Below, in pieces: positions 1,824 to 52,992 of a DNA stretch of 64,000 nt. Numbering within the stretch: position 1 is the stretch's first letter; each line of letters starts with the position of its first letter. This stretch comes from a virus (taxonomy: Duplodnaviria > Heunggongvirae > Uroviricota > Caudoviricetes): IMG/VR virus record IMGVR_UViG_3300042946_000906. The stretch is one strand, 5' to 3'. A program made the translations under genes and the position numbers. Under the pieces are notes generated by a model. It made no database searches, was not told where the DNA came from, and saw nothing but the letters and a program-made list of their open reading frames with translations.

Positions 1824-1840
1824 CTAAAATAACAAACCAT

Positions 1841-2837: not shown

Positions 2838-2838
2838 T

Positions 2839-35571: not shown

Positions 35572-38500
35572 TTATTGGTTACGTTTCATAATATCAATAC
35601 GCCAATTTGGATCTGCAATATCTCTAAAGTTTTTAATACCAGTTAGATCGAAGAAATCTTTCATCAATTTTGCATCACCTTTCTCATAACCACCAGCTTT
35701 TCTCATATAGTGAGAATCTTTCCAGATTTCATGTTTCCATTGACTATCATCTTCATTAGGTTCTTCACCACCATTAAAAATATATGATAGTAAAAGATTA
35801 AATCCATGACTACTTGTTGCCATCAGCGCGTTAAATTCACGTGTGTATGCAGTAAATGTTGTAAAATTCTTAACGTATTCTTTAGAACCACCTCCAATTG
35901 GAAACATCGAGTTGGTTTCACCATGTACACCCCAAAGAACTCTAATTGCGTTACCTTCCAAGAATGATAATTCTTCATCATCATCGTCTTTTTTCCTAAC
36001 GTATGAAAGAGCCATCATACTTAAAACTGTAAAGAGAGCCATTGTCAACGCATCTCTTTTTGCATGCTGAATTTTAGACGCATAAAAACCATTTACTTTT
36101 GTTTTATTATCTCTCAAAAGATTTTTGCTACCAAACAATACATGTTTAGCAATTTCTTTTGGTCCATAATAGCGATATGCTGTTACAAATGCTCTCCAGT
36201 ATCCAACAGCAACTTCTCCAGATTCATAGTTTGGTCTAAGATATCCAAATCTATTTAACATCTGAGGTATTACATATTTTCTAAAGAAGAATACAAGTTT
36301 ACCTACTACATTTTCTTCAAAAGCAGTTTGATCTGCTTTAGCATAGTTACCTTGTGCTCTACGCATTTCAGAATAAATAGTATTTCTTAATCTGTTTTCA
36401 TCTTGTTGTGTATATTCTACATCATTGCGTTTTGATATGGAACCATCAGCATCTTTAAAATAGACCTCGTGAGCTGGTATAACTACATCATTACCTTCAG
36501 CATCTTTTCTGTACACTTTATCTCCTGTAACCGGATCAATGTCAAAAGTTTTAAATTTGTAACGATTTAAAATTGCGTACATTACTGTAACACCAATTTC
36601 TGTATCACCTTTATCTTGAAATAAATATCCAAGTTCTTGAACATTCATTGCTTTAGATAAAATTCTTCTACCTCTTGAACCAGTTACTTCATCGACATAT
36701 TTTATATAATCCTTTTGCATTGGGTTAAATAGTCTGTACAACATAGTAGATTTACTAATGTCACTAACTCTACCCCAGTCACCAAAATAGTTTTTGATAA
36801 AACCGTTTTCACCAAGACCATACACTTGACCTTTTGCCCACATATAGTCTTCTCTACTATAGTGATCACTTTCTAATCCTCCTGCTGCAATAAATGCTTG
36901 TACATTACCAGACACGTAGTTTTTAGTTTGGTTGACAACATCAAATCCAATTCTAATAAAACTGGTGTATGACATTACGTTATTTACAATCTTTGTAAGT
37001 TTTTTGTTAAGATATGTAAGTGATTGATCTTGTGCATTAATAAACTTTCTTCTTTCAAATTTAAGAATTGAAATTACATTTTCAAGTTCTGCAAGACGTT
37101 TATTCATATCAATTGGTCTACCTTCATCATCTTTAAGAACTGCTTTGTTTTGAGTTTGTTTTTTCAAATCCTCAGAAAGTAATTCAATACCAGAAATAAA
37201 AATATCAGCAACCGGTGCAACTTCTTGCATTGCAATATTATAGTTTGCTTCTGTTGTCCATTTCATTAAACAACCAACTGCATCTTTTGATTGCATGTTT
37301 TCAGGAAGTTGATCGTTAAATCTTAAACGAATTCTACCTCCATTATCACCAAAAGTATTTGACACTGTGTCTTGTACACTACGTGTTTTCCATGCTTTAT
37401 CAATGTATTGTTCCCATCTGTTTTTTGAACCTTCAATAATTCCTTCTCTTGAGAAGTTTTGCATTGTGGTTGAAGCAAATCCAGGAACTTGGTATCCAAT
37501 TTTTTTACCATCAGTTTTTACTTGTAAATCAAAAAACATGGTAGTTAATTTTTTGTAAAAATTAAATAGTTCAGGATCATTCATCATGTTCAAGTATTTT
37601 GAATTGATGTTTTCTACTTTATATGTAGACCTGTCTACTTGATAAGATTTGTCAGAATCTTGATAAATACCTTTTGGCATTGGAATTCCATCTGGTGATT
37701 TTAAAAAGTCTGGATTATACGACGACTCTTTTAATTTTTTGATTTTATACTTAGGATGTGGTACAGTTTCAGTATATTCTGCAGCAACGCCTGGAGCAGG
37801 AAGTCTTTGGTAATTAAAAGATTTTGCTATTGTTCGTTTGTAAATATCTTCTTCACTGTCTAATATACTTTGATATGGTTGTTGGTGAAATTGATTGTAC
37901 CATTTTTCAAATTTCTTTTCTTCAATGTCAAATTGACCTTCATAAAATATAACATCTTTTGTAGCATTATCAATTGCAGCTGCGTCTTTACTTGCCTCTG
38001 CTTTTTCTAAATCAAGTTGTGCTTTAATTAATAGTTTTTTTGAACTATTTAATGCTTTGATTTTAGCATCACGACTGTTTATGTAAGATTTACTTAACTG
38101 CAGTGAAGCAATTCTGTTTATTTGTTCTTTAATTTGAGTAGATCTTTGTTTTTCTTCAGGAGTAAATTTACTCATATCAAGTGTCTTGCCTTCAAATATA
38201 GACTCAAGTTGTGCTTCTATATCAGCAATTTGATCTGCTTCTTCTTCAGTAACAAACTGTGACTGAAGTATACCAGCAACCTTGTGTGGTTTTAGTATCT
38301 CAGAACGCTGTTTAATCAAATCAGATACTGCAGGATCAGAACCAAATATTTCTGCACGAGCTTCATATAATGCAGAAAGCTCATCATACCATTGTGATGT
38401 CGGTCTTGTTACTGTGTTATCAGCATACCATTTTTTAAGTAATTCAGGATGTTCTTGATACTTTGCAATTGCATTTGCTTTTCTTCTTTCGTAGAATGCA

Positions 38501-41457
38501 AAGTTTGTATCAAACTCAAATAAATTATTAAACTCTTCCATGTACGCAGCATAATCAGGATTCATCTTCTTTGCCTTTTCTCTCAGAACTCTGATGTCAT
38601 CTTCAAGTTCTTTCAATCTATCAAAGTCATAATCCTCAAGTAACACTTCGTTTCCTTCACCTACCTGAAATGTTATTTGCTGTATCTCAAAATATTTTTC
38701 CTGAAGTTCATTTCTGATTTCTTCAGGCATTAATGCTTGTAATTTGTAGAATGATTCATTAAATGGTAATGATGTATTATCAATTAACCATTTAATTCTT
38801 TCAGTATTAAAATTTTCTTTTTCTTTCTTTTTTTCAAACAATGCTGTTTTAGCATCTTCATATTCTTGAGTACCATTCTGTTTAGAATTAACTTCACTTG
38901 TCAAGTTTCGAATTTCTTGATTAAATTCTTTTAGTTTTGAGTTGTATTCTTTGAATGTGTTTTCGTATTCTTGACTATATGGTTTTACAAAATTTAAACT
39001 TCTTGCAGTTTCATACTCACCTTTATCCTTATTAAATACTTTGTATTCTCTCCATTCAGACATTTCATCATTTAATTGTTCAACAGTAAATCGTTTTAAT
39101 AAATTATCTCTGTCTCTGTCAAACTGCATTATTGCAAAATCATTTTGCATATTGTATACAGCTTTTGCTTGTCCATTTTTATACATTTGAGTCATTGCTG
39201 ATATTGCAAGATCACTATTAGATGCAGAAGCGATACCTTTATCTAATAACAATCCGGAAAACAATGATGTACTATTAAAAGTATCTTGTGCTCCAATATA
39301 AACTTGAGAGTTTGGATCTGTAACAGCATTGATGTATTTTTTTAACGCCTCAATATCATATTCAACTCCTGTAGTAACGTATGCGCGTAAACGTAATAAC
39401 TCAAGTTCTTTACGTTGTACATTGTCCAAAATATCTTTAGCATCAGGAGAACTATTAGCAACTTTTTTTCTAAACTCAACAGATACTAAAGATATTAAAC
39501 TTCCTTGCAGTTGTTTAAAAAGATTTGCTGCTTTACCAGCTTTCATGTCTTCAATTTCTTTTTCTAATTTAGCAATCTTTGGTTCAAGTGCCTGACGTGT
39601 TTGAGCATTAATAGAAGAAAACACTGCTTCACCAGGTGTCATTAATATTTTAACACCGTTTAGTAAAAATGCTTCTCTAAAATTTGCTTCAATTGTCATG
39701 TTATGTTGACGTAATTGATTTAATTTTTGCATTACAGGACTGCTTGGAGAAATATTATTATTAGGATCTTCTGCAGCTTTGTTTACAATAGACTCAAGAG
39801 TTTCAATAATATCGTTTAGTCCTTTTGAACGTATAAATGCTTGATGAATTTGTGTTGTATCTGAACTAAAAAAATCAAGTGTTCCAGTTCTAAAAGACTT
39901 GATTGCTTCTTTTGACAAATCAGATAACTTTTTAAGATCGTCTTCTGTAGCAGCAAGAATATTAAAAAAGTTAATTTCATATGCAGCATCTGTTGCATCT
40001 ACCTTTTCAGTATAAGTATTAAATGTTGCTAAGGTGGCTCTTCTAACTGCAAGTAGTTCACGCAATGGAGTCGAGTTTTTACCTTGAGCGTCTAATTCAT
40101 TTATTCTATCAAAGATTTCTTCACTCTGTTGTTTATATGCCTCTTTTAATGCTTTCATTACTCTTTTGTTTTCTGCTTCAGTTGGAGTAAACTCTAATGT
40201 TTGAAAGTTCTTTTCAAGTTCATCCTCAATAGCTTTGTTACCAACAGGGATTTCTGCATCTATTGCATCACGATATTCTTTTAATCTTTGTGCAGTTCGT
40301 AGTGGATCTTTTATCCAATCACCATACTCATTGATTGTTTGAGCGTATGTTGCATAATCAAAGTAGTTATTACCTTGAAATATATGTAATGCATCACCTA
40401 AGAATTTATTGTTTGCATCTGTTTGATATAGTAAAGCAACAATCTTACTTTCTTCAGTAACAAGACCAATTTGACCAAGCATATTTTCATATGCTTTTAA
40501 TTGCAGTGTCCAGTTGTCGTATGCTGTTCTAAGTAAGTTTGCTTGTTTTAATTTATCAGCCATACCTGGTTTGTCATTAACCTGATATGAAGTTGTGGCA
40601 AGATTGACAAATGCTCTGTCTTTGTCAATTTCAACACCAAACGGACCAGTAGTAACCATGTTATGAACCTTTTTTGTCTTAAAGTCAAACACTTTTACTT
40701 TACCGGTATTGCTAATCAAAAGTAAATCCAGACGACCAACAATATAGTTACCTGCAATATCTTTACCAGCAAGAGTAATCTCTGGTAAGATAAGATATCC
40801 TTCATCTTTGTTAACAGCGACATGTTTTGCAACACGATCTGCCATGTCAAATATTTTTTCTTTTGTAAGTTCTTCTATGTAAAATGGATTCTTTTCTAAA
40901 TACTTTTCATACACCTTGTCAAAAAATTCTGGAGTCAAGACTTGGTCAATAACCTTGTTTGTTTTTAACGCTTCAATCTGTGCTTTTTCTAACACGTCGT
41001 GCATAAATGTACCAAACAGTTTGAATGCTTCATACTTAGCAGGATCTCCTGCAAAATCTGAAGATCCAATAAATGAAGTAACAGAGTAAGAAGGTAAAGT
41101 GTTTCTACCATCTTTTCTTAGCTCAATGTTTTTTTCAAGAAATTCTTGATACTCTCTATTGTTTTGTAACAGTTTTGAAATTGCTTCTCTTTGAGCATTG
41201 TTTGCAAATAAACTAAGATTTGTAAGTGTAACTGCTTGATCTTTAGTTCTTTCTAATTTGAATTCATCAGAGTGACGAACATGTCGTTCATCATTTTCTT
41301 CCACTTTCATACCTGCAATTAAACTTTTTGCTTCATCAACAGAAGGAATAATATCTTTATTTAATGCAACAGCGGTTCTTGCTAATGCCTCATTGCCTCC
41401 AAATGCTGCAACAAGTTCTTTAAACAATGGATCATTTATGTTAATACAATTTGTCAT
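35572..41457 (-). CDS. large virion protein (1961 aa), coiled-coil rich; candidate ejected/cargo or tape-measure-like protein
   Basis: Uninterrupted 5.9-kb ORF, 4 nt downstream of the 3843-aa gene. Long E/K/Q-rich helical stretches; hydrophobic segment near the C-terminus (ALFTVLSMMALSYV). Confidence 0.6.
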   Translation of the reverse strand: MTNCININDPLFKELVAAFGGNEALARTAVALNKDIIPSVDEAKSLIAGMKVEENDERHVRHSDEFKLERTKDQAVTLTNLSLFANNAQREAISKLLQNNREYQEFLEKNIELRKDGRNTLPSYSVTSFIGSSDFAGDPAKYEAFKLFGTFMHDVLEKAQIEALKTNKVIDQVLTPEFFDKVYEKYLEKNPFYIEELTKEKIFDMADRVAKHVAVNKDEGYLILPEITLAGKDIAGNYIVGRLDLLLISNTGKVKVFDFKTKKVHNMVTTGPFGVEIDKDRAFVNLATTSYQVNDKPGMADKLKQANLLRTAYDNWTLQLKAYENMLGQIGLVTEESKIVALLYQTDANNKFLGDALHIFQGNNYFDYATYAQTINEYGDWIKDPLRTAQRLKEYRDAIDAEIPVGNKAIEDELEKNFQTLEFTPTEAENKRVMKALKEAYKQQSEEIFDRINELDAQGKNSTPLRELLAVRRATLATFNTYTEKVDATDAAYEINFFNILAATEDDLKKLSDLSKEAIKSFRTGTLDFFSSDTTQIHQAFIRSKGLNDIIETLESIVNKAAEDPNNNISPSSPVMQKLNQLRQHNMTIEANFREAFLLNGVKILMTPGEAVFSSINAQTRQALEPKIAKLEKEIEDMKAGKAANLFKQLQGSLISLVSVEFRKKVANSSPDAKDILDNVQRKELELLRLRAYVTTGVEYDIEALKKYINAVTDPNSQVYIGAQDTFNSTSLFSGLLLDKGIASASNSDLAISAMTQMYKNGQAKAVYNMQNDFAIMQFDRDRDNLLKRFTVEQLNDEMSEWREYKVFNKDKGEYETARSLNFVKPYSQEYENTFKEYNSKLKEFNQEIRNLTSEVNSKQNGTQEYEDAKTALFEKKKEKENFNTERIKWLIDNTSLPFNESFYKLQALMPEEIRNELQEKYFEIQQITFQVGEGNEVLLEDYDFDRLKELEDDIRVLREKAKKMNPDYAAYMEEFNNLFEFDTNFAFYERRKANAIAKYQEHPELLKKWYADNTVTRPTSQWYDELSALYEARAEIFGSDPAVSDLIKQRSEILKPHKVAGILQSQFVTEEEADQIADIEAQLESIFEGKTLDMSKFTPEEKQRSTQIKEQINRIASLQLSKSYINSRDAKIKALNSSKKLLIKAQLDLEKAEASKDAAAIDNATKDVIFYEGQFDIEEKKFEKWYNQFHQQPYQSILDSEEDIYKRTIAKSFNYQRLPAPGVAAEYTETVPHPKYKIKKLKESSYNPDFLKSPDGIPMPKGIYQDSDKSYQVDRSTYKVENINSKYLNMMNDPELFNFYKKLTTMFFDLQVKTDGKKIGYQVPGFASTTMQNFSREGIIEGSKNRWEQYIDKAWKTRSVQDTVSNTFGDNGGRIRLRFNDQLPENMQSKDAVGCLMKWTTEANYNIAMQEVAPVADIFISGIELLSEDLKKQTQNKAVLKDDEGRPIDMNKRLAELENVISILKFERRKFINAQDQSLTYLNKKLTKIVNNVMSYTSFIRIGFDVVNQTKNYVSGNVQAFIAAGGLESDHYSREDYMWAKGQVYGLGENGFIKNYFGDWGRVSDISKSTMLYRLFNPMQKDYIKYVDEVTGSRGRRILSKAMNVQELGYLFQDKGDTEIGVTVMYAILNRYKFKTFDIDPVTGDKVYRKDAEGNDVVIPAHEVYFKDADGSISKRNDVEYTQQDENRLRNTIYSEMRRAQGNYAKADQTAFEENVVGKLVFFFRKYVIPQMLNRFGYLRPNYESGEVAVGYWRAFVTAYRYYGPKEIAKHVLFGSKNLLRDNKTKVNGFYASKIQHAKRDALTMALFTVLSMMALSYVRKKDDDDEELSFLEGNAIRVLWGVHGETNSMFPIGGGSKEYVKNFTTFTAYTREFNALMATSSHGFNLLLSYIFNGGEEPNEDDSQWKHEIWKDSHYMRKAGGYEKGDAKLMKDFFDLTGIKNFRDIADPNWRIDIMKRNQ

Positions 41458-41460
41458 GTC

Positions 41461-44400
41461 TTATAAACATTTAAGTTTTTCAATAATTTCTTGGTTAGAT
41501 AATCCTGTAGATTTTAACTGTACAGCCATGTCTGCAAAAGTTTTAGAATACGCTTCTAAAGATTGACGTTTACCGCTTTGCTCGTAGAAGTGCTTTACTA
41601 CATCAAAGGTAACATTAATATTTTGAATATCAAGTTCTAATTGAGTAAGTGGTGCAGATGTTTCCGGTTTAATAGAATAGTCTTCAAACATGTCTGCAGT
41701 TAAACCTTCAGACATTGCTTCTGCAAGATCAAATTCTGACATGTCAACTTTTGCTTTTTTATTTATAAGACTCATGTATCGTTTAGATTGTTCAATACTA
41801 AATCCAATTGGACTAAGTGTATTAGTTGTAAGTTCCATTGGTAATGCAACATATTTTGCAGCGTTACCTGTAGTTCTATATTCACCTACACCTGCAATAG
41901 AATTGATAATAGATTTACCAAAACTCTTATTACCTATTTCTTCATCAACACCTTGTAACAAATAAGTAGTGGATCCAAGTTTTAACATAACTGGAAACTT
42001 AAACTTATTTTTATCATCTTTATCTTTGAAGATGTTTAACTTTTCACCTACAGCCATTACTGCTTGAGAAGTTGCTTCAGGAATGCTATCAGCACCTTTC
42101 ATGTTAATAACAATTTCTTCAAGTTTACCAGAAGTAAGTCTATCAGTAAGTAAAAATCCTTTTTTATCTGCAGTAACAACTAATCCTAAAATATTTCCAA
42201 CAATTTTATTTGCAATGTCAATTCTTTCTTTTGCATCTGTTGTTTGGAAATTAATGTTTTTCATAAATTTAGATGCATAATCTGCAGACTCATTGTATGA
42301 AATATTTTTAACACCTTTGATTTTCTTATTACTAACTTCTTTTGATGCACCATGCGCCATTAAAACAAACAAATCATCAAATAACTTGTACACTTGTTCT
42401 TGAGTAGTTGTTGACTCATCGCCAATAAATGATTTAATTGCATCAATTAATTCTTTTTTATTACCTTGAGTACTCTCAATTGCTTTAATAAAGTCTTCTA
42501 TGTTTTTAGACAATGGTATCTGTAATTCAGCAGGTAGATATTGTAAAAAAGATCCAGATTTATATTGCAACCCTGTTCTTGCAAGTTCATGATAAAATAG
42601 TTTTTTCATAAACAAGTTTTCTTTTTTATACAATACATACGCATCATTCGAAATACTATCAGCTAATTCACCAGCAATTTTTGCTTTATTTACCATTTCC
42701 AAAGTCTTTTCTTGAACAGGTTGATTGGTTGTAGTAAATACTGTTGCTGTATTGTTGGATACTTTTAAGTATTGTAAGAACTTATTATCAGGATACAGAT
42801 CCTTCATTGCATCAAGTTCTTTATCTAAAGAATTTTTAAACCAGTAATCTGCAGTAAATGTTTCAATCAAGTTTCTGTCATCTGCGTCAAAGTTTGCTTG
42901 CATCGAGGCGTTAGTACTTTTTCTGCTTCCAGGAAGACTTAGTTGATATTTACGCAAAGCAACAAAACTTGTCATAATTTTGGCAATGTTAGATGGATCT
43001 GTAAACACAGTATCAAACAAGTTTTTAATTGGTTGGAAGAAAGACGTTCTTTCTAAGAATATTTTAGAAGATTGCTCTTTTAAATCATCCATTGATTCAG
43101 TAAGTGGAACCCACACTTGTTTTCCATTAAATAATTTATCGCTGGATTCTACTGTAAATATAGATTCACCATCACGTAACTGATTAATGTTTTTATACAA
43201 TTTGTCAAAAGATACAAAAGTCGGATTAAGTTTTTTATACAAATCAACTATTGCACCTGCATTTCGTATCTTCCATGCTTGTTGTGATTGTTCTTTGTAT
43301 AATTGTAACAAAATCAATTTTTGTGCTTCATTTGATAGTGCTGTTTTAACACCTCCAACATAAGCTGATACTTCATATCCAATGTCTTCAGTAGTAAGAA
43401 CATTGTTCTCTAATCTGTATTCATCAAGTGGAGTTTGTTTAAAATCAATCATTAAGTTGTCTTTGTTAATTTTAACATTAACAGCATATGAATCTGGTGC
43501 AATTAGACCTGCATCAATTAGTTCATTTAACAATTTTCTATCACCATTGGTTTTTACAAATTTTTCAATTTGTTTTCCAATCCTGTCATTTAAAAACAAA
43601 TACTCTGTCGAAATTGATTCACTAATTGCAAAACGAGATGCTTGAACTTCATTTATAGCATTTCTTATTTCAGGAATAAAGTTAAATCCAAATGCAAATG
43701 CAGGATCTAATCCGATTCCAATCATCGCAAGAGTAACACCAGTATTTATTTCATTCATTTCTAATGCAGCAGGAATAGGTTTTTTCATACCGTCTGCAGC
43801 AATACCTAATACAATACCATTAAGTTCAATTACACGCTGACCATTTTTGTTTATTGCACCAAATTTAAAAAGATTGTTTTCAGTTATTTTAGTAGTACCA
43901 TCTGCTTGCAAATCGTTGCTAAAAAATTTCCAAACAACATTGTTAGAATTTAGTTCTAATTCATATTGACTTGCAAGTGCTAAGAATTTTTGTAATGACG
44001 CTGCAATACCAATCATATCTTTATAAGCAGAACCTAAATATTTAGACTCAATAATAGATGTAATAGTATTTGGATCAGACTTAGGTCCAAAATTTTCAAG
44101 ATCCCTACCGTAGCCTTCTACAATACTTTCGAAGTATTCTGTAGAAGATTTAGCGTGTATGTACAAGTTTTTAAACACTGCCTCATTAGAAAGAATATTA
44201 ATCTTTGCATCCAAGTTATTATTTTGGTGTATAGGTAATACAGACAAATGATTCACAATGTTACTATCAAAGTTTGCTTGATCAACTGGTAAACCATATT
44301 TTTCAAAAACTTGTAATGCTGCTTCAATTCTTACAGCTCCATCTACAAGTGTTAACAATCTTCGTTTTTCTGCACGTACTTTATTACGTTCCTGATATGT

Positions 44401-47400
44401 TTCGTCAAGTTCATTTTTCAAATCAAAATGTTCTTTACCAAATTTTCTACGATTTGCTTTTGCAACATAGTCATTAGAATCATTTTCAGTATCACGTTTT
44501 GCTTGAACAAATGCTTGTCTACTTACTTCTTTTTCTGATTTAATGTCTACAATATCTTCTTCTAAATCTGATTCGTAACTTTCAAGATCATCAATTACAC
44601 CTGCAGTTAACGCTTTGATATAATCTTCCTGAGTATAACCCATTCCGTACATTACCTCAAGTGCATTTGCAGTTATAACAAGCTCTTTAGATTCTAAAAT
44701 TTCTTTTCTTTTTGCTTTGATTAATTTTTTAAAGTTTTCATCATTAGCCATGTAATGAATGTACTCTATAAATTTACCTTGTGCAGGAGATTTGTAAACA
44801 TCATAATTACCATATTTTGCATAATCACCTGCCGCATTTATATAATGCGCATATGTTTGACCATATAACGAGTCAACGTCAAAGTCAGATCCTGCAAGTA
44901 AGTGTATAAATTGTGGTACGACAATAGTGTTCATGTTAGAACTATCCACGTAGTCTACTACTTTAAGTACAATCATTGAACGCTTATCTTCAGTTGGAAT
45001 ACGAAGAGCAAACATTTCTCTAAGATTTTCCATAAAGAAATCTTCTTGCTGCTGACTTCTAAAAAACTGCTTTGGTAAAATACATTCAACAAAGTATTTT
45101 TTACTAATTAATTCTCCATTAGAATCATATTTAGCTTCAATACGTACACCTAATGGTCTACTTTTTACATTAGGATATCTTTCTGGATTGTTTTTGTAAT
45201 CTTCAGTTGTAACAACTTCTCCATCTTCATTTTCTAATACGTCAAGTCCAAATGAAGAAACGTGAATATTTTTAAATCCAGAACCTTTTTCATCAGTTAC
45301 ATGTTTACTGTAAAGCGAAAAGAAATAGTATTCTAACATAGATCTAATACCTGGAAGGTTAGGACTATGAACAGGTTTACCAGAAGCATCTACATCAAAT
45401 AGTTTTAATACTGATGCCGGTGCATTCTGTGTTTCAAGATTTTCTCTAATCAAATCAAATACTTTTCCTAAATCAAAGTCTTCACCTTTACGCATAAAGT
45501 GTTTTAATGACTGCAGATTAGAATCAGCAATATCATAAAGTGACTCTTGATATTTAAGAAGAACATCACCTAATTGGTTCATTGCTTTTCTTTCAGAAGA
45601 AGACATTACCGTTCCGTCTTCAGCGTGACGCTTTTCTGCAAGTTGTTCAATGTATTTTAAATCTGCAGGTAATAATATTTTACCTTGTACAGAAAAACGT
45701 GCTGTGTCGTGTACGCCAGAAGTTTCAACCTGAAGATATTTATCTTCATTGTTTACTCTTAATGATGACAAATTTAATGGAAGATATTCTTCAGCTTCAT
45801 GTCCAAAGAAATCAACAGGAAGTTTTGTAGCATTTTTAGATGCTTCAGTATCCATTAACTGATCTATATTGTGATACTCCATAGAGTTTAAAATCTTGTG
45901 AAGTTTTACTCTATTAGGAAGTGGCACATAATATGCATGAATTTTTACATATGTGTCTTGAATACTTTTTTCTAAATCTTCAATAGTAGTATCAAATTCT
46001 CCTGTATCATTAATTTTGTGTGACTCTTGTATTTGATTACGTAAACTATATATGTACATGTATTTAGAATGTAAATCGTCATACACTTGATCACGAGTTT
46101 TACCTTCCGGCACAATCAATCTACTCACGTCATTTCTATCAATATACGCTTCTGATTGTTTATGATATACATTACGAGAAGCAGTAACAGTTTTCTTAGG
46201 ATTATTTACTACTTTGTTTTTCTCCATGTTTCGAACTTCTTCTTCAGTTAGTTCGCGATATTGTTTTGCAATAAGAGAACTTAATATTTCAGGAGTAAGT
46301 CTTCCTAAAGCATCATGCATATCTGCTTGATGAAACAATGTAGAAATACTTTGACCATCAAATACTTTTTGATTAAGTTTAAAGTTTCTATAAATGTAAT
46401 CACGCACAGCATCATCAGTAATTTGAATATCATTTAATACTTCTTGAGGATTATAAAATGGTCCATATTCTGGATATTTATCATTTATGTATCCTTCAAT
46501 AGTATTAAGATAAGTAACAGTATGTTTACCTGCTTTCATTGTACTACCAGACGCAAGTAATTTTTTATTACGTTTTGTAGAATCAATACCGTCTTTAACA
46601 TTCATTGCCTTATCACCTAAGAATAATTCATTAACCATTAACGAGTTATACCATTGATTAAAGAAATAATCAGCAAGTAATCCGTTCAAGTCACTGCGAG
46701 ATTGTAATTCAGCTCTTACATCATAATTTGGTTTTGTACCAGCATATACTGTAGTAGTACTTTGATCAGGTCTACTGTCAATTTTTAATTTGTCTGCAAT
46801 TAAACTTGAAGTTAAATATCTAAGGGGTGGCTGTTTTGTTTCAAACACAATAGGATTTCCTTCAACATCAGTAATAGTTTTTCCAGTTGCTGGATCTTTT
46901 TTAAGAGCTTTTACTGTTTCTTCATTTTCTTTTACAACACCTAAATTTTTTAATGTATTTATATACGTGTTTAATTCTTGTAAAGCATAGTTGTTTAGTC
47001 CTTCACGTAAATCTGCTAAAGTACTTTCATCAATGTCTTCAAAATTTATATTTTTATCTTTTGCTAAACCTATTAATGTTTGTGTTAAAGTATCATTTTC
47101 AGGAGCTGCAAAAAAGTATGGTAAGTAATTAAAGTTATATGCTCTTAAGTTTTCAGATTCAGTGTCTGCTTCTGTCACATTTTCTTTACTTAATACACCA
47201 TTGTACTTGTTAATTATTCTATTTGATTTACCAGAATCAAAGTTTGATTTGTTATCAACTCTACTGTTCCATTCTTTTTTAATTCTGTTAAATTCTTGTT
47301 TTACTTTGCCTTCAAGATCTGCAACAATTTTTAAATGTTTTCCTTCTTTTAAAAGACCTGTTTTATCTGCATAAGGTTTGTAGATAGAAGTAATTAAAAA

Positions 47401-50400
47401 GTTTGTCTGAGATGCCTCAAGTGTGTCAAAAGTACGCAAGAATGTCTGGAATGATGTACTAACATCTTCTGGGTTCCCATCTTCATCTAATTTTGTTTCA
47501 GTGGATGATACAGTTGTTCTTTGCAAAAATGATAAAATACTCATTACATGGAATGATTGTTTATCAAGTTTACCAAATGTTTTACCATCTTTGTATGTCT
47601 GATTATTAAACTGAGCCACTCCTCCAAATAAAGACACTCTCATGTTGTCCATTAAAAGCTGTGCTTTTTTTGCATCAGCTGTGTCTTTACCGGCAAGCAA
47701 GTCTGCAAACAATGGATTATCTTTATAAAAATCTTTTAAGAAATCATTATAATAAGGATCTTTTCTTAATGTGTTTTCTAAACCTGTTCTTCTAAAAGCT
47801 TGAGCAGTTGAAATCAGCGGTGTGTATTTTGTATAACGATATACTGGTTTACCAGCAGCATTTCTTACAACACTTGGTCTATCAGTAGCGTCATATTTTA
47901 ATATATATTTTTGAAATTTGTAAGCAATACTAAAAAAACGCTTGAAGTTATCATTGTTTTCGTCAAGCATTTTACCAAATGCATTTGAAGTAATAGAATC
48001 ATTTTTAACAGTATTGTATATTGCTCTTATGTCATAGAACAAATCTTTTTGTAAAAACGCTTTATCAGCAATAAGAGAAGCATTAGCATCATAATGTAAA
48101 AGTGTTTTTTTATCTATTTGAGATAATCCATTATTATTATTGTCTATTTTATCAATTGCTAAAATTGACATTCTTATTAATGATTTTGGTAATTCAATAC
48201 CGACACCTTTGAAGGCATTGTATAAATCAAAAGTAAGAGTTTCTAAATCATTATTTGCTTTTGCAGCACTACCAAGAATTATCTTTTTATTAATAATTGT
48301 GTTTGATAATTCAATCAATCTGTTTACAGATGCTAAGTATTCAGGATCATTTCTTTTTTTAGCATGAGTGGTAATCATTGAAGCAATCATATTACTTCTT
48401 TTATTTTTTGAATCCATTTTTACAATAGTATCTCCTAATGTATAGTTTTCAATATTATTACCTTCTTCTTCAAATACTCCTGTTTTTAATCTGGCAATCA
48501 TCATAAAATATTCTGTTTCAGTACCGTGAAGTACGTCAACAAACATGTTATATAATTGTCTGTTAGAAGATGGATTACCATTTTCATCCATCCCGGTATA
48601 ATCTTTTAACTGATTATATACAGCTTGTAAATCTGCAGCATCGTTAAATTTACCATCTTCTCTGTAAACATCAGCAGTAACTTGTATCTGATTAATAATG
48701 TTGTCTACAGATACATCAGATGTGATTTTTAATAAAGTACCATAAATACTTTCTCCATCAATTACACGTGGAAAAGTTATACCTAAATCTTCTTCTTTTT
48801 CATAATTGATAATAGCAAGAAATCTTCTGATTTGTCTTGGCGCTGAATCAAGTCTGTTGTGTTCACCAAATCCTTCATCGATGTTTACGTCATCAGATAT
48901 TTCTTGACCATCTTCGTAGTCTTGATCTACTTGAGATTTTTTCTCATTTTCTCCAGCAAGTTCTTTTAATAAAAGTCCTTTATCAAGAGTTTCACCAGTT
49001 CCGTCTAATATAGAATATAACTCTTGTGATTTTTTCTTAACAAGTTTTTTTAATTTTTCAAGAGATACTTGTCCAAGATCGTTGTTTAACGGATCGGATT
49101 CATACTGCAGTATTTTATTTGGTAATATTCTTTTGTCATATGCAGCATTACCAGAGTTGTTTAAATCATAAATTGTTTCTCCAGTTGCTCTGGCTCCTAA
49201 CATAAATCGATATTGTGAAATAAGATTACCTTTTGTTTTAATAAGTTCTTGTACTCTGTTTGGATACTGTTCTGTATTTGGATTTTTTTCAATTAATCTA
49301 TCAAGGTTGTATACTTTATCAAGAATTAATCTTTGTGCTGTTTTAAACTTTTCTTCAAATGTTTGTGCTGATGTGTTTTCAATAACATATTTTGTCACCA
49401 TGTTTACTAACTGACTTTGATCAGATGCACTTAATGGCATTGCTTGTTGACTAACTCCAGTTGCAGATGTTTTATCTTTTACAATTACTTTTAAACCATC
49501 AATTACTTCATAAGCAACTTGACCATCATATAAATTTGACTGAATTTGCTTGCTACTATAGTAACCTCTTTGAATGTCTTTGTATGTACTATCAACAAGT
49601 TTACCTCTTTGAGTAAACATATCAATTAGTCTTTTAAGCATTTCGAATAGCTGTGCTACAAGACCTTGAGGTTTTGTATTTTTATTCATGTAGTTTTGGA
49701 AACCATCTGCAAGAATTTCTTCAGCTTTTAACTGAAACATTTTCTCATAATCATATACATAGTTTCTTTCACTTGCAAATTTTTTCAATGCTGCAGGTGT
49801 AAATGCTTTTTTGTATTTTTTGTTTGATGATACTGCATCAATAAGTTTTGCTCTTTGTTCTGGAGACATTAGATATCTAAACACACCATGAAATGCCTCA
49901 TGGTATACTACACCTTTTGACAATATAGAATTATTCAAATAGATAACTCTATCTTTAAACATACCAAGTACAGTTCCATCAATTGCTGCTAAATCAACAA
50001 TGCTTGCAATATCTTCTGTTGATATACCAAACTGTGGTAAATTTTCTTGCAACCACTGAACAGAGTTTTGTCTTTCTGCTTCTGTTTCAGTTTGCACCTC
50101 AGTGTCAGAAATAGAAAACACATCAATTTCTGGAATATCATCGTTTACGTCAATTTGTTCTGTAGTAGTTCCTTCTGCGTATTCTGCAGATGGTAATGGT
50201 TGACTTACTGGTATATTTTCAATCGGATGATTTGTAACTTCTAATGGTTCTACGTTTGCAACAGGCATGTTAGTTGCAGATGGAGATTTAGAAGTAATAA
50301 CAAGTTTTTTTACAGGTATAGTTTTAATATCTAAACTACTTAGGCTTTTATCGTAGTTTTGTCTTGCTTGTGTTTTATTATTATTTGCAAATTCAATACG

Positions 50401-52992
50401 CGGAATGTATGCTCCTTCTTCATTAACATCTACAACTAAATGTTTAGGATCTGGAAAATCATTCATAAAGTTTTCAGTAAACCCTTCATATTTTTTACCA
50501 ACTACTAATAGCTTATCAATTACTCTTTCAATAATTATTTCAGAAAACTTTTGTTGTTGTTTTTTAATTTCGTCTACAAGAGCAACTATATTTTCAGATG
50601 GATTTTCTTCTTTAGATAATTGATTTACTAATGAATAGAATTTTGCAAGATCTTTTTGTTTTGTAAGATCCAATTCTGAAAATATAATGTTTTCATTAAT
50701 TACTTTTGTAACTAACGGACCTCCTCTTAAAGCAGCTGCTAAAGTTTTTATGTCTTTTTCAGGTGATAAAATAGTTGTACCATCTGCTGCAAACATTGGT
50801 CTAAAAGAAAAATTAAAATCTGATTTAAGTTCTTTATCTCCCATGAAACCGTATTTGCCTGTACTACTTACAGGTCTGACTTCAACTTGTAAAAATCCTT
50901 CAGCGTCACTTGCAAAATTTACATATAATTCCAAGTTATCATTTTTAGATGCAAACTTTTTAAAAGCGTAAACATTTCTATTAAAATCTTGCAACAGAGC
51001 TTTTTTATTTGGAGAATTTAATACATCAGCCAAAGTTGTCATAAATGTAGCAAACCCTTCTTCTTGTGATAATACATATACAGGTCGTACAACTCTAAAA
51101 CCATATGTACGGTTGTTGTTAAAACGAATAATTATGTTTGTAGTTGTTTCAACATATTGATTTTTAAGTATATTGTTTTTAATATACTCATCAGTAAGTT
51201 TTATATTAGGATCGAAATAAGAAGTCAAATATGCATCTTGTGTAACTTTATCAATAACTCCACCGTTTTCATCTTTTATAATAATACGCTCATTAGCACC
51301 TAAAGTATTGATTAAAGTAAACTTGTTTAATTTATCTTTATCAGGAAATTTTCCAGTTTTTTTATCAAACTTGTCTTTGATTTTGCTAAATGCAAATACA
51401 ACATTGCGCTCTTCTTCTTTGATTATATTACCAGCATTATCAATTGTTCCAATTGTCAACTTGCGAGAAAGATTAGGTTCAGACTCAATTACTTCAGATA
51501 AGTTTTGTCTTGTCTCTTTACCAAAAGTTTGTGTGCCAATGTTATATTGTGAAAAAAATTCTTTAGTAACATCTATAGAAGTTACATCATCTGAGAATTG
51601 ATCTTCAATACTGTTTGTTAATTGCTCTTTAAATGTTTTATATACTTCATGAGCATTTTTTATTGTAAGTAAATCATCTTCAGTTAATTCATCTTGACTT
51701 TTATCTGATAATCTTTTAATAGATAATTCTTTAACTTTTGCAAGATGCACAGGATTTGAAAAGTCTATTTTTTCTGTAGTGTTATCACTATTTAAGAAAA
51801 CATAGTTGTCAAGTGGATACAAGTAAAATTTTTCACCGGTTCCAATTATTTCACCCATCAACGCAAATTTACTATCTGCTTTCTGTGGTCTTGCAACAGT
51901 AATAACTGTTCCTTTAGAAGTAGATTTTAAATAATTAATTTGAGTCTCATTCTCAAATGTTTCATATGTTCTATTACCAAGACCTTTGTATTGTGGATTT
52001 GCAGCAAGTCCCTGTATTCTCTTTAGACGTTCATCACCAACAGTACTTAATTGTACAGCAATTATCCGTACACCAGCTTCTGGGTTGTCCATTTTTTTAA
52101 GCTTATCTTCAATTTTATCTTTAAGATAAACAGTATTTTCTACAGGTTGGATCTTAAAATTAGATGTAATAGTGTCTTCAAAAAATTCTTGTTTACCAGT
52201 GTTACTATTAGAGTAATCATCGTTACGTGCATTTTTTGTAGAAAGTATATCAATTTCATCAAGTTGAAATTCGTTACCATCTTCTGTCATAATAAACAAA
52301 CCTTCTGGTTTAGCTATTGCCTCAAGCATTTGACCATTTTTCAAAGTAACAAGTACATTGTTTAATTCTGCAAGAGATGCAATATCACGCAATGATATGA
52401 AATCAGATTTTTTATCTAATGATTCTATAACAGAATCAATTCTTGCTAATAAAAATTCTTTCTGAGAATCAGTAGTATTTAATTCACGAATAACATCTTT
52501 TAATTCTGAAGTTATACTTTTTAATACTTCAGCTCTTTCTTCAAGACTTGCAAACTCATGAGTGTTAAAATAATTTTTTATGGCAGTAAGCACACCATTT
52601 GATCCTGTTAAATCATTACCGGTGATTGTATTCTTTTTAGAAAGTGCCTCTATCTTTTTTTCAATAACTTCTGCTTTTAATGAAGGTGCTTTTTTAATAG
52701 TGTAAAGATTGCTTACAGCTGATAGAAACGCATCCGGTTCAGAAAGTAACACTTTTGCTTCTGCAATTTTTACAGCATTACCAACTTGATAAAATGATTT
52801 ATCAAGATCATTTAAACCAATGTATATCTCTGATATTGAAAATAAAGAAAGTGATTTCTCATTGTTTGAGAGACCACTCTTTAAAATAAACTCCGCTGTT
52901 TTATCAAAGTTTCTATATATCTCAGGATTTAATTTAATAAGGTTCTTTACAATTGATACATATTGACCAGTTGTTATTTCACACTGTTTCAT
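41461..52992 (-). CDS. giant virion protein (3843 aa) with DFDVD (two-barrel RNAP-like) and HEAFH (zincin-like) motifs; candidate virion-packaged RNA polymerase
   Basis: Single 11.5-kb ORF. GSDFDVDS at residues 2701-2708 (nt 44872-44886) resembles the NADFDGD Mg2+ site of β'-type double-psi β-barrel RNAPs. VYHEAFHGVF at residues 1029-1038 (nt 49888-49902) is an HExxH motif. Size and position (after tail genes, minus strand) match crAss-like vRNAP/cargo genes; that is an inference. Confidence 0.6.
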   Translation of the reverse strand: MKQCEITTGQYVSIVKNLIKLNPEIYRNFDKTAEFILKSGLSNNEKSLSLFSISEIYIGLNDLDKSFYQVGNAVKIAEAKVLLSEPDAFLSAVSNLYTIKKAPSLKAEVIEKKIEALSKKNTITGNDLTGSNGVLTAIKNYFNTHEFASLEERAEVLKSITSELKDVIRELNTTDSQKEFLLARIDSVIESLDKKSDFISLRDIASLAELNNVLVTLKNGQMLEAIAKPEGLFIMTEDGNEFQLDEIDILSTKNARNDDYSNSNTGKQEFFEDTITSNFKIQPVENTVYLKDKIEDKLKKMDNPEAGVRIIAVQLSTVGDERLKRIQGLAANPQYKGLGNRTYETFENETQINYLKSTSKGTVITVARPQKADSKFALMGEIIGTGEKFYLYPLDNYVFLNSDNTTEKIDFSNPVHLAKVKELSIKRLSDKSQDELTEDDLLTIKNAHEVYKTFKEQLTNSIEDQFSDDVTSIDVTKEFFSQYNIGTQTFGKETRQNLSEVIESEPNLSRKLTIGTIDNAGNIIKEEERNVVFAFSKIKDKFDKKTGKFPDKDKLNKFTLINTLGANERIIIKDENGGVIDKVTQDAYLTSYFDPNIKLTDEYIKNNILKNQYVETTTNIIIRFNNNRTYGFRVVRPVYVLSQEEGFATFMTTLADVLNSPNKKALLQDFNRNVYAFKKFASKNDNLELYVNFASDAEGFLQVEVRPVSSTGKYGFMGDKELKSDFNFSFRPMFAADGTTILSPEKDIKTLAAALRGGPLVTKVINENIIFSELDLTKQKDLAKFYSLVNQLSKEENPSENIVALVDEIKKQQQKFSEIIIERVIDKLLVVGKKYEGFTENFMNDFPDPKHLVVDVNEEGAYIPRIEFANNNKTQARQNYDKSLSSLDIKTIPVKKLVITSKSPSATNMPVANVEPLEVTNHPIENIPVSQPLPSAEYAEGTTTEQIDVNDDIPEIDVFSISDTEVQTETEAERQNSVQWLQENLPQFGISTEDIASIVDLAAIDGTVLGMFKDRVIYLNNSILSKGVVYHEAFHGVFRYLMSPEQRAKLIDAVSSNKKYKKAFTPAALKKFASERNYVYDYEKMFQLKAEEILADGFQNYMNKNTKPQGLVAQLFEMLKRLIDMFTQRGKLVDSTYKDIQRGYYSSKQIQSNLYDGQVAYEVIDGLKVIVKDKTSATGVSQQAMPLSASDQSQLVNMVTKYVIENTSAQTFEEKFKTAQRLILDKVYNLDRLIEKNPNTEQYPNRVQELIKTKGNLISQYRFMLGARATGETIYDLNNSGNAAYDKRILPNKILQYESDPLNNDLGQVSLEKLKKLVKKKSQELYSILDGTGETLDKGLLLKELAGENEKKSQVDQDYEDGQEISDDVNIDEGFGEHNRLDSAPRQIRRFLAIINYEKEEDLGITFPRVIDGESIYGTLLKITSDVSVDNIINQIQVTADVYREDGKFNDAADLQAVYNQLKDYTGMDENGNPSSNRQLYNMFVDVLHGTETEYFMMIARLKTGVFEEEGNNIENYTLGDTIVKMDSKNKRSNMIASMITTHAKKRNDPEYLASVNRLIELSNTIINKKIILGSAAKANNDLETLTFDLYNAFKGVGIELPKSLIRMSILAIDKIDNNNNGLSQIDKKTLLHYDANASLIADKAFLQKDLFYDIRAIYNTVKNDSITSNAFGKMLDENNDNFKRFFSIAYKFQKYILKYDATDRPSVVRNAAGKPVYRYTKYTPLISTAQAFRRTGLENTLRKDPYYNDFLKDFYKDNPLFADLLAGKDTADAKKAQLLMDNMRVSLFGGVAQFNNQTYKDGKTFGKLDKQSFHVMSILSFLQRTTVSSTETKLDEDGNPEDVSTSFQTFLRTFDTLEASQTNFLITSIYKPYADKTGLLKEGKHLKIVADLEGKVKQEFNRIKKEWNSRVDNKSNFDSGKSNRIINKYNGVLSKENVTEADTESENLRAYNFNYLPYFFAAPENDTLTQTLIGLAKDKNINFEDIDESTLADLREGLNNYALQELNTYINTLKNLGVVKENEETVKALKKDPATGKTITDVEGNPIVFETKQPPLRYLTSSLIADKLKIDSRPDQSTTTVYAGTKPNYDVRAELQSRSDLNGLLADYFFNQWYNSLMVNELFLGDKAMNVKDGIDSTKRNKKLLASGSTMKAGKHTVTYLNTIEGYINDKYPEYGPFYNPQEVLNDIQITDDAVRDYIYRNFKLNQKVFDGQSISTLFHQADMHDALGRLTPEILSSLIAKQYRELTEEEVRNMEKNKVVNNPKKTVTASRNVYHKQSEAYIDRNDVSRLIVPEGKTRDQVYDDLHSKYMYIYSLRNQIQESHKINDTGEFDTTIEDLEKSIQDTYVKIHAYYVPLPNRVKLHKILNSMEYHNIDQLMDTEASKNATKLPVDFFGHEAEEYLPLNLSSLRVNNEDKYLQVETSGVHDTARFSVQGKILLPADLKYIEQLAEKRHAEDGTVMSSSERKAMNQLGDVLLKYQESLYDIADSNLQSLKHFMRKGEDFDLGKVFDLIRENLETQNAPASVLKLFDVDASGKPVHSPNLPGIRSMLEYYFFSLYSKHVTDEKGSGFKNIHVSSFGLDVLENEDGEVVTTEDYKNNPERYPNVKSRPLGVRIEAKYDSNGELISKKYFVECILPKQFFRSQQQEDFFMENLREMFALRIPTEDKRSMIVLKVVDYVDSSNMNTIVVPQFIHLLAGSDFDVDSLYGQTYAHYINAAGDYAKYGNYDVYKSPAQGKFIEYIHYMANDENFKKLIKAKRKEILESKELVITANALEVMYGMGYTQEDYIKALTAGVIDDLESYESDLEEDIVDIKSEKEVSRQAFVQAKRDTENDSNDYVAKANRRKFGKEHFDLKNELDETYQERNKVRAEKRRLLTLVDGAVRIEAALQVFEKYGLPVDQANFDSNIVNHLSVLPIHQNNNLDAKINILSNEAVFKNLYIHAKSSTEYFESIVEGYGRDLENFGPKSDPNTITSIIESKYLGSAYKDMIGIAASLQKFLALASQYELELNSNNVVWKFFSNDLQADGTTKITENNLFKFGAINKNGQRVIELNGIVLGIAADGMKKPIPAALEMNEINTGVTLAMIGIGLDPAFAFGFNFIPEIRNAINEVQASRFAISESISTEYLFLNDRIGKQIEKFVKTNGDRKLLNELIDAGLIAPDSYAVNVKINKDNLMIDFKQTPLDEYRLENNVLTTEDIGYEVSAYVGGVKTALSNEAQKLILLQLYKEQSQQAWKIRNAGAIVDLYKKLNPTFVSFDKLYKNINQLRDGESIFTVESSDKLFNGKQVWVPLTESMDDLKEQSSKIFLERTSFFQPIKNLFDTVFTDPSNIAKIMTSFVALRKYQLSLPGSRKSTNASMQANFDADDRNLIETFTADYWFKNSLDKELDAMKDLYPDNKFLQYLKVSNNTATVFTTTNQPVQEKTLEMVNKAKIAGELADSISNDAYVLYKKENLFMKKLFYHELARTGLQYKSGSFLQYLPAELQIPLSKNIEDFIKAIESTQGNKKELIDAIKSFIGDESTTTQEQVYKLFDDLFVLMAHGASKEVSNKKIKGVKNISYNESADYASKFMKNINFQTTDAKERIDIANKIVGNILGLVVTADKKGFLLTDRLTSGKLEEIVINMKGADSIPEATSQAVMAVGEKLNIFKDKDDKNKFKFPVMLKLGSTTYLLQGVDEEIGNKSFGKSIINSIAGVGEYRTTGNAAKYVALPMELTTNTLSPIGFSIEQSKRYMSLINKKAKVDMSEFDLAEAMSEGLTADMFEDYSIKPETSAPLTQLELDIQNINVTFDVVKHFYEQSGKRQSLEAYSKTFADMAVQLKSTGLSNQEIIEKLKCL

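What the first reader, a model, noticed from the sequence alone, without database searches (positions are those of the whole stretch)
41461..52992. 3843-aa ORF carries a DFDVD motif like the β' NADFDGD catalytic loop: candidate giant virion-packaged two-barrel RNA polymerase
The largest ORF in the window (11.5 kb, one protein) contains GSDFDVDSLYGQ at residues 2701-2712 (DFDVD = nt 44872-44886, minus strand). Cellular RNAP β' subunits, YonO, and the crAss-like virion RNAP gp66 of Cellulophaga phage phi14:2 all use an Asp triad in a D(F/Y)DxD loop on a double-psi β-barrel. A multi-thousand-residue protein after the tail genes matches how crAss-like phages encode an RNAP that is ejected into the cell. 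If confirmed, this phage does not depend on host RNAP for early transcription, and the protein would be among the largest vRNAP-containing polypeptides. The rest of the polypeptide has no recognisable similarity and may hold further ejection or pore-forming domains.
Basis: partly seen in the sequence, partly recalled or inferred. Interest (0 to 1): 0.8.

Follow-up and report, generated by a model that had tools for sequence, protein, structure and literature searches.

The report
Giant crAss-like phage virion RNA polymerase
The 3843-residue protein is a typical, previously uncharacterised member of the known family of giant RNA polymerases that crAss-like phages carry in their particles and inject to start infection.

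Summary
The ORF (41461-52992, minus strand, 3843 aa) and the DFDVD motif (aa 2703-2707, nt 44872-44886) are exactly as described.

The motif alone is weak evidence, since about 1.4 DxDxD are expected by chance in a protein this size. Homology settles the question:
- GSDFDVDSLYG aligns residue for residue with the catalytic motif of crAssphage gp44 and Cellulophaga phage phi14:2 gp66.
- The three Asp are invariant in every homologue examined.
- A clade profile matches gp66 over connector, second barrel, bridge helix and trigger loop (hhalign E 8e-9).
- Gene order copies phi14:2 gp67-gp66-gp65.

The protein is ordinary for its clade. At least 64 non-redundant relatives of 3000-5047 aa share the layout, so it is not unusually large.

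The N-terminal third carries a conserved HExxH...EE metalloprotease-like domain (aa 975-1160).

One thing seen in passing may be new. These cargo proteins are almost free of cysteine, except for one Cys at each end that faces the next protein in the chain. The pattern tracks gene fusions and fissions, which suggests head-to-tail linkage.

The parts
41461..52992 (-). Complete ORF, 3843 aa: giant cargo protein containing the virion RNA polymerase
44872..44886 (-). DFDVD (aa 2703-2707), the metal-binding Asp triad of the beta-prime-like barrel. It has Val at position 4, as in all crAss-like polymerases.
   Evidence: paper 10.1101/2020.03.07.982082
43624..45573 (-). aa 2474-3123: region aligned by profile to gp66 residues 1143-1668 (connector, second barrel, bridge helix, trigger loop). 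By alignment the bridge helix is at about aa 2975-3010 and the trigger loop at about aa 3053-3090.
   Evidence: hhalign prob 95.8%, E 8.4e-9; 96.3%, E 1.8e-9
45715..45882 (-). aa 2371-2426: MDTEASKNAT...QVETSG block. It aligns to gp66 at about 1058-1100, just before the connector, so it is the candidate beta-like first barrel. K2386 is invariant in all 8 aligned sequences.
   Evidence: local model confidence is low
43093..46692 (-). aa 2101-3300: modelled catalytic core
49513..50070 (-). aa 975-1160: conserved HExxH...EE (gluzincin-like) domain. HEAFH is aa 1031-1035 (nt 49888-49902); the EE is at aa 1091-1092.
   Evidence: HExxH present in 109 of 112 homologous segments; A5 invariants; fold not confirmed
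50071..52992 (-). aa 1-974: clade-specific N-terminal region of unknown fold. Cys4 (nt 52981-52983) lies in MKQCEI.
   Evidence: collinear N-termini in about 64 giant relatives; no match to gp65, gp67 or crAss gp45
41464..41664 (-). aa 3777-3843: conserved C-terminal module ending ...EIIEKLKCL. Cys3842 is nt 41467-41469.
   Evidence: homologous to the C-termini of separate small ORFs in related loci and to P0002/P0009
53012..57838 (-). Upstream 1608-aa cargo protein in the position of phi14:2 gp67. Its only Cys is third from the end (...AAECFK).
   Evidence: synteny
35572..41457 (-). Downstream 1961-aa protein. It starts MTNC, has a PD-(D/E)XK nuclease domain at aa 145-265, and its C-terminal part is homologous to phi14:2 gp65 and crAss-like 'RNAP subunit' proteins.
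   Evidence: Pfam PF12705 E 2.9e-6; BLASTP to gp65 E 6.5e-8; tblastn

Best explanation
The ORF encodes a crAss-like virion RNA polymerase, orthologous to phi14:2 gp66 and crAssphage gp44, embedded in a larger cargo polypeptide. The layout is: a clade-specific N-terminal region (aa 1-974), an HExxH...EE metalloprotease-like domain (aa 975-1160), a gp66-like single-chain two-barrel polymerase (roughly aa 1250-3700, catalytic DFDVD at 2703) and a short conserved C-terminal module ending in Cys. What is shown here: homology, conservation of the catalytic residues, a predicted fold matching 6VR4 and QDE-1, synteny, and cysteine depletion. What is inferred from phi14:2 and crAss001: the protein is packed in the capsid together with its two neighbours (1608 aa and 1961 aa). 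It is then pushed at least partly unfolded through the tail ahead of the DNA and refolds in the cell. There it transcribes early phage genes in a rifampicin-resistant way, with D2703/D2705/D2707 holding the catalytic Mg2+. Middle and late genes are left to the host polymerase. The HExxH domain may process or activate the cargo.
Against: Direct sequence searches give nothing: PDB phmmer, Pfam and PHROGs. A profile of the closest relatives alone does not reach 6VR4 by hmmsearch. The link to gp66 therefore needs profile-profile or structural comparison. The first-barrel region and the DFDVD loop itself have low model confidence, so convergence of the three Asp between two barrels was not checked geometrically. 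Outside about aa 2100-3300, homology to gp66 is only hinted at. Packaging, ejection and activity are untested. The capsid, portal and terminase genes that define Crassvirales lie outside the window.
Confidence: 0.9

Rival explanations
1. Polyprotein variant: the 3843-aa product is only a precursor. Its own HExxH domain, or a partner's, cuts it into an N-terminal piece, a protease and a gp66-sized polymerase of about 2200-2500 aa, and that polymerase is the active enzyme. This refines the best explanation rather than contradicting it.
For: The published suggestion that fused crAss cargo proteins are cleaved and that a zincin domain may activate the polymerase. The HExxH...EE residues are conserved in 109 of 112 homologues. 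The gp66-equivalent region starts right after this domain (collinear weak matches).
Against: No cleavage site is known. The zincin fold is not confirmed. The conserved terminal cysteines at residue 4 and residue 3842 suggest that both original ends matter in the mature form.
Confidence: 0.35
2. Chance motif in a structural, tail or tape-measure-like giant protein with no polymerase function.
For: About 1.4 DxDxD are expected by chance. There are no Pfam, PHROG or PDB sequence hits.
Against: Exact alignment of the extended motif with established and predicted crAss polymerases, an invariant Asp triad, profile E of 1e-9 to 1e-16, and structural top hits 6VR4 and QDE-1. No tail profile matches.
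Confidence: 0.01
3. A two-barrel enzyme with a different job from early DNA-dependent transcription, for example RNA-dependent synthesis like QDE-1, or primer synthesis.
Against: The closest characterised relative, gp66, is a DNA-dependent polymerase that transcribes early genes in vivo. The window has its own primase and helicase genes.
Confidence: 0.05

Closest known systems
Cellulophaga phage phi14:2 gp66, virion-packaged DNA-dependent RNA polymerase (PDB 6VR4)
   Different: gp66 is 2180 aa and has no HExxH motif. Here about 1250 extra N-terminal residues, including an HExxH...EE domain, and a C-terminal module are part of the same chain. In phi14:2 the zincin motif sits in gp65, whereas here the gp65-like protein carries a PD-(D/E)XK domain instead. 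Identity is only about 16-24%.
crAssphage (Carjivirus communis) gp44 and other gut Crassvirales 'RNAP catalytic subunit' giants
   Same: Identical core motif GSDFDVDS.YG and the RIPTE.K.S block; similar overall size (4070-4749 aa); N-terminal MxC.
   Different: In gut phages the polymerase is fused at its C-terminus to the gp65-like part, and the zincin lies in the upstream protein gp45. Here the fusion is at the N-terminal side and the gp65-like part is a separate gene. Sequence similarity is detectable only over about 250-400 residues.
Uncultured environmental clade in IMG/VR and metagenomes (e.g. IMGVR_UViG_3300031952_000005, 105 kb; P0021, 3849 aa)
   Same: Same architecture: HExxH at about aa 1000, DFDxD at about aa 2500-3000, length 3500-5050 aa, same neighbours. 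Up to 80% identity over the core and 69% over the N-terminus.
   Different: Some members split the C-terminal module off as a separate small ORF of 149-744 aa. None has been studied experimentally.
Neurospora QDE-1 and cellular multisubunit RNA polymerases (beta-prime / Rpb1)
   Different: There is no detectable sequence homology. The fourth motif residue is Val rather than the universal Gly of NADFDGD. It is a single chain rather than beta plus beta-prime.
Coliphage N4 gp50 and other Schitoviridae virion RNA polymerases
   Same: A giant polymerase of about 3500 aa, packed in the virion, ejected with two partner proteins, and strongly depleted of cysteine (PMC11445570).
   Different: N4 gp50 is a T7-like single-subunit enzyme of an unrelated fold, so this is analogy, not homology. 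Schitoviridae ejection proteins lack Cys altogether, while the crAss-like ones keep terminal Cys.

Membership tests
crAss-like virion RNA polymerase (phi14:2 gp66 family) | DFDxD catalytic motif with Ile or Val at the fourth position, in the GSDFD[IV]D context | tested here: met
   GSDFDVDSLYG at aa 2701-2711 aligns column for column with gp66 1359-1369 and crAssphage gp44 1431-1441. The rule is stated in 10.1101/2020.03.07.982082.
crAss-like virion RNA polymerase (phi14:2 gp66 family) | Asp triad conserved in homologues | tested here: met
   D2703, D2705 and D2707 are invariant in 8 of 8 sequences and 11 of 11. The motif is present in 70 of 79 fetched loci; the other 9 had no motif-bearing ORF under standard translation.
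crAss-like virion RNA polymerase (phi14:2 gp66 family) | Significant homology to gp66 / crAss gp44 across the catalytic core | tested here: met
   hhalign E 8.4e-9 and 1.8e-9 against gp66; E 4e-13 and 1e-16 against crAss gp44 and the Rudgehvirus protein. Plain hmmsearch against PDB was negative.
crAss-like virion RNA polymerase (phi14:2 gp66 family) | Single chain with two double-psi beta-barrels joined by a connector, plus bridge helix and trigger loop | tested here: met
crAss-like virion RNA polymerase (phi14:2 gp66 family) | Encoded between two other large virion proteins at the end of the structural block | tested here: met
   1608 aa, 3843 aa and 1961 aa on the minus strand meet the plus-strand replication genes, as gp67-gp66-gp65 do. 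The 1961-aa protein is homologous to gp65.
crAss-like virion RNA polymerase (phi14:2 gp66 family) | Present in virions and ejected into the host | not testable with these tools
   Indirect support only: Cys depletion to 0.08% against 1.58% background, a signature reported for ejected proteins.
crAss-like virion RNA polymerase (phi14:2 gp66 family) | Rifampicin-resistant DNA-dependent RNA synthesis of early genes | not testable with these tools
   Known for gp66 only.
Order Crassvirales | Characteristic major capsid protein, portal and large terminase | not tested
   These genes lie outside the 64-kb window. The two structural ORFs upstream (871 and 1111 aa) have no database match.
Zincin / gluzincin metallopeptidases (aa 975-1160) | HExxH plus a downstream Glu ligand, conserved | tested here: met
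   H1031, E1032 and H1035 are conserved in 97-98% of 112 segments, and E1091/E1092 in 92-96%. Both motifs also hold in A5 (invariant or at least 90% per residue).
Zincin / gluzincin metallopeptidases (aa 975-1160) | Zincin fold or profile match to a curated peptidase family | tested here: inconclusive
Cellular RNA polymerase beta-prime subunit | NADFDGD motif with Gly at position 4 and Pfam RNA_pol_Rpb1 domains | tested here: not met
Phage tape-measure / tail proteins | Match to tail or tape-measure profiles | tested here: not met
   No Pfam or PHROG tail family matches the ORF.

The most novel reading that the evidence does not exclude
The cargo proteins of crAss-like phages may be joined head to tail through single cysteines placed at their ends, most simply by disulfide bonds. 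The gp67-like protein, the polymerase and the gp65-like protein would then form one continuous thread. That thread would be ejected through the tail and fall apart by reduction once it reaches the cytoplasm. In the window the pairs would be Cys1606 of the 1608-aa protein with Cys4 of the polymerase, and Cys3842 of the polymerase with Cys4 of the 1961-aa protein. The supporting evidence is as follows. In 64 non-redundant giants, 59 have Cys at positions 2-6 and 61 have Cys in the last 7 residues, and 120 of all 182 Cys are terminal. Cys is present on both sides of the junction in 15 of 18 upstream and 9 of 10 downstream junctions across 19 lineages. Lineages that fuse two proteins lose the pair, and lineages that split off a small ORF gain a new pair. 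The pattern also holds in crAss001, where gp47 is encoded on the opposite strand from gp50 and gp49, so it is a property of the proteins and not of the gene junctions. I found no mention of this in the searchable literature.
Probability: 0.4. Interest if true: 0.7.

Novelty: new member of a known kind. Interest (0 to 1): 0.3.

Why it matters
The result identifies the window as part of a crAss-like phage from an environmental, low-GC (about 32%) lineage. It also assigns function to its largest gene. By analogy with phi14:2, early transcription should be independent of the host polymerase and resistant to rifampicin.

Comparison across the clade shows that the same set of modules is cut into genes at different places in different lineages. 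The modules are an upstream cargo protein, a metalloprotease-like domain, the polymerase, a C-terminal module and a gp65-like protein.

The terminal-cysteine rule that emerged along the way gives a concrete, testable idea for an open question: how several cargo proteins of about 200-450 kDa each are ordered and threaded through a narrow tail.

Tried and rejected
- The whole-protein search of the 5.8-billion-protein database timed out. Searching in pieces worked.
- The first representative-library job failed because the profile exceeded 1200 positions. The job was then used for the N-terminal 1200 aa.
- Direct phmmer against PDB, Pfam, PHROGs and megablast against phages all gave nothing for the ORF.
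- A profile of the closest relatives did not reach 6VR4 by hmmsearch.
- No homology was found between the N-terminal 974 aa and gp65, gp67 or crAss gp45.
- The pore-forming idea has no support: no hydrophobic segment lies outside the polymerase core.
- The DNA polymerase (family A, about 33% identity to many unrelated phages) and the 1111-aa structural ORF gave no taxonomic placement.
- The single tRNA call (1751-1824, undetermined anticodon) lies inside an ORF and was treated as a probable false positive.
- The explanation that junction cysteines reflect nucleotide-level coupling signals was rejected. Their positions vary, and the pattern persists in crAss001 across opposite strands.

Full report
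**1. Observation.** The window holds an uninterrupted ORF at 41461-52992 on the minus strand, 3843 aa, flanked in the same orientation by ORFs of 1608 aa (53012-57838) and 1961 aa (35572-41457). GSDFDVDSLYGQ is at aa 2701-2712 and DFDVD is encoded by nt 44872-44886. It is the only DxDxD in the protein. About 1.4 would be expected by chance given 7.1% Asp, so the motif on its own proves nothing.

**2. First-pass searches.** Single-sequence searches were empty: PDB, Pfam, PHROGs and megablast against 50,697 phage records. A translated search with aa 2001-3200 found 85 phage records. All 30 listed are crAss-like or uncultured gut phages, and the matches lie under genes annotated 'putative RNAP catalytic subunit' (best E 4e-15).

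**3. Homology at the motif.**
- BLASTP against crAssphage gp44 (4070 aa) and its Rudgehvirus counterpart (4098 aa) aligns GSDFDVDSLYG with GSDFDVDSVYG and GSDFDIDSVYA. It also aligns RIPTEDKRS with RIPTEGKQS.
- Against phi14:2 gp66, the experimentally proven virion polymerase, the pairwise match is weak. It ends precisely at 1361-DFDID-1365.
- In an alignment of the window protein, four close relatives, two gut crAss proteins and gp66, the residues R-I-P, S, G-S-D-F-D, D and Y around the motif are invariant.
- Among 11 clade members the three Asp are invariant, and two members have DLDxD.
- The published rule that crAss-like polymerases carry Ile or Val at the fourth motif position, where all other two-barrel polymerases have Gly, is met.

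**4. Extent of the polymerase.** Profile-profile comparison of the clade with gp66 gives probability 95.8-96.3% and E about 1e-9. It covers window aa about 2474-3123 against gp66 1143-1668, that is the connector, the second barrel, the bridge helix and the trigger loop. Weaker collinear matches (aa 1797, 2101 and 3415 against gp66 736, 855 and 1897) suggest that the gp66-equivalent module spans roughly aa 1250-3700. The block MDTEASKNAT...QVETSG (aa 2371-2426) aligns just upstream of the gp66 connector. It contains Lys2386, invariant in all eight sequences, and is a candidate for the conserved basic residue of the beta-like barrel.

**5. Structure.** An AlphaFold2 model of aa 2101-3300 with a 19-sequence alignment reached mean pLDDT 76.4 and pTM 0.78.
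- Foldseek against PDB returned 6vr4_A first (E 1.3e-13, probability 1.0, 875 columns). Pol II Rpb1 chains, archaeal and bacterial largest subunits and P74 gp62 followed at E 0.02-0.25.

This reproduces the published relationships of gp66. The DFDVD loop and part of the first barrel are low-confidence in the model, so I did not verify the active-site geometry.

**6. Context.** The left half of the window, on the plus strand, encodes helicases, a DnaB-like helicase, a primase, a PD-(D/E)XK exonuclease, a family A DNA polymerase and a ribonucleotide reductase. The three giant genes converge on this block, exactly as gp67-gp66-gp65 do in phi14:2. The C-terminal part of the 1961-aa protein is homologous to gp65 and to crAss-like 'RNA polymerase subunit' proteins. 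Its N-terminus has a PD-(D/E)XK domain. No second polymerase gene was found among the 15 largest window ORFs scanned against Pfam and PHROGs.

**7. How common it is.** IMG/VR contains at least 402 relatives. The best is 80% identical over the core, on a 105-kb contig. About 28 loci share the layout: HExxH near aa 1000 and DFDxD near aa 2500-2900, in an ORF of 3500-4330 aa, followed by a protein of about 2000 aa. An exhaustive search of 1.84 billion representatives with the N-terminal 1200 aa found 122 relatives, 64 of them giants of 3000-5047 aa. Most of these match from at or near residue 1, a few only through the domain of section 8. The protein is therefore typical of an uncultured environmental clade, not exceptional in size.

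**8. The rest of the polypeptide.** Residues 975-1160 form a domain that also occurs alone in small proteins and at other positions in giants. Y-H-E-A-F-H-x-V-F and, 56 residues later, E-E-x-L-A-x-x-F are each conserved in more than 90% of 112 segments. This is the gluzincin pattern. It agrees with the literature statement that one of the three crAss cargo proteins carries a zincin-like protease. However, no curated profile, PDB profile, homology to the gp65 or gp45 zincin regions, or structural match confirms the fold. I therefore call it metalloprotease-like. The first 974 residues have no detectable relatives outside the clade. No transmembrane-like segment exists outside the polymerase core.

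**9. Mechanism.** Shown here: a conserved two-barrel catalytic core of the gp66 type. Inferred from phi14:2 and crAss001:
- The protein is packed in the capsid with its two neighbours.
- It passes, at least partly unfolded, through the tail ahead of the DNA and refolds in the cell.
- It transcribes early genes in a rifampicin-resistant way, while middle and late genes use host polymerase.

One independent piece of support for ejection is cysteine depletion. The three giants have 0.06-0.10% Cys, against 1.58% in the window's plus-strand ORFs (P about 1e-22). Cysteine depletion is reported for ejected proteins of N4-like phages.

**10. Seen in passing: terminal cysteines.** The few cysteines that remain sit at the protein ends.
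- In the window, the 1608-aa protein ends ...AAECFK. The polymerase starts MKQCEI and ends ...EKLKCL. The 1961-aa protein starts MTNCIN.
- In phi14:2, the only four cysteines in gp67, gp66 and gp65 together (5398 aa) are these junction residues.
- In crAss001, gp47 has one Cys, third from its end. gp50 has Cys5 and Cys2404 of 2412, plus one internal Cys. gp49 has only Cys5. This holds although gp47 is encoded on the other strand.
- In 64 non-redundant giants, 59 have Cys at positions 2-6 and 61 have Cys within the last 7 residues. These account for 120 of all 182 Cys.
- Across 19 lineages, both sides of the upstream junction carry Cys in 15 of 18 cases, and both sides of the downstream junction in 9 of 10.
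- Gut crAss phages, in which the polymerase is fused to the gp65-like part, lack the C-terminal Cys.
- Six loci split the C-terminal module off as a small ORF. That ORF has exactly two Cys, one at each end, and the shortened polymerase gains a new C-terminal Cys.

The simplest reading is a covalent or metal-bridged head-to-tail chain of cargo proteins. I found no report of this. Disulfides are already known in crAss001 virion structures. This is a hypothesis, not a result.

**11. Verdict.** The feature is a new member of a known kind, the crAss-like virion RNA polymerase. The claims about record size and pore-forming domains are not supported. Interest in the finding itself is modest. The terminal-cysteine rule is the part worth following up.

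Noticed in passing
window 52981-52983 (Cys4), 41467-41469 (Cys3842), 53018-53020 (Cys1606 of the 1608-aa ORF), 41446-41448 (Cys4 of the 1961-aa ORF); also L004, L084, L005-L083: The cargo proteins are nearly cysteine-free, yet they carry one Cys within about 6 residues of the end that faces the next protein in the chain. This holds in phi14:2, crAss001, crAssphage and 64 non-redundant metagenomic giants (59 N-terminal, 61 C-terminal; 120 of 182 Cys are terminal). I found no description of it in the literature.
   Followed up: partly
L009 8227-8808, L010 12888-13475, L011 8222-10219, L012 16768-17217, L013 15686-17920, L014 15901-16881; window aa 3777-3843 (nt 41464-41664): In some relatives the C-terminal module of the polymerase giant is a separate small ORF with exactly two Cys, one at each end. 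The shortened polymerase ORF then ends in a new Cys. Fusions, as in the window and in gut crAss phages, lack the pair. So gene fission and fusion track gain and loss of the junction cysteines.
   Followed up: partly
window 49513-50070 (aa 975-1160 of the giant ORF): A conserved HExxH...EE domain with no Pfam or PDB match. It also exists as stand-alone proteins of 200-530 aa and at other positions in other giant proteins, so it looks like a mobile, uncatalogued metallopeptidase-like family.
   Followed up: partly
window 40663-41025 (aa 145-265 of the 1961-aa ORF); P0009, P0011: The gp65-like cargo protein carries a PD-(D/E)XK nuclease domain. Relatives of the polymerase giant carry other enzyme domains according to precomputed Pfam hits: RNase HI (PF00075) in P0009 and DUF1768/YbiA-like (PF08719) in P0011. 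This suggests that variable 'payload' enzymes are injected together with the polymerase.
   Followed up: no
window 32751-35537 (-): A 928-aa ORF directly downstream of the cargo genes has an SO2946-like C-terminal domain (PF22237, E 1.4e-14) and low Cys (0.2%). Its role is unknown.
   Followed up: no
window 57845-60460 and 60483-63818 (-): The two large ORFs upstream of the cargo block (871 aa with no Cys at all, and 1111 aa) have no match in Pfam, PHROGs or the phage collection.
   Followed up: partly
window 27202-28053 (+), 200-1048 (+), 24423-25238 (+): Accessory genes in the replication half: a spore-photoproduct-lyase-like protein (PF20903), an SPFH/Band 7 protein (PF01145) and a DUF932 protein.
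   Followed up: no
window aa 2760-2890 of the giant ORF (about nt 44323-44715): A coiled, highly charged helical insertion of about 100-120 residues follows the catalytic barrel. It is present here and in several relatives (P0010, P0012, P0013, P0015) but absent from P0001 and P0002.
   Followed up: no
L027, L051, L052, L068, L071, L073, L075-L077, L082, L083; L039, L040: Several gut crAss-like loci gave no intact motif-bearing ORF under the standard code, or had an odd start without the MxC. This may reflect stop-codon reassignment, introns or mis-called starts in those phages.
   Followed up: no
window 1751-1824 (+): ARAGORN calls a tRNA with an undetermined anticodon inside the ORF at 1742-2122. 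It is probably a false positive.
   Followed up: no
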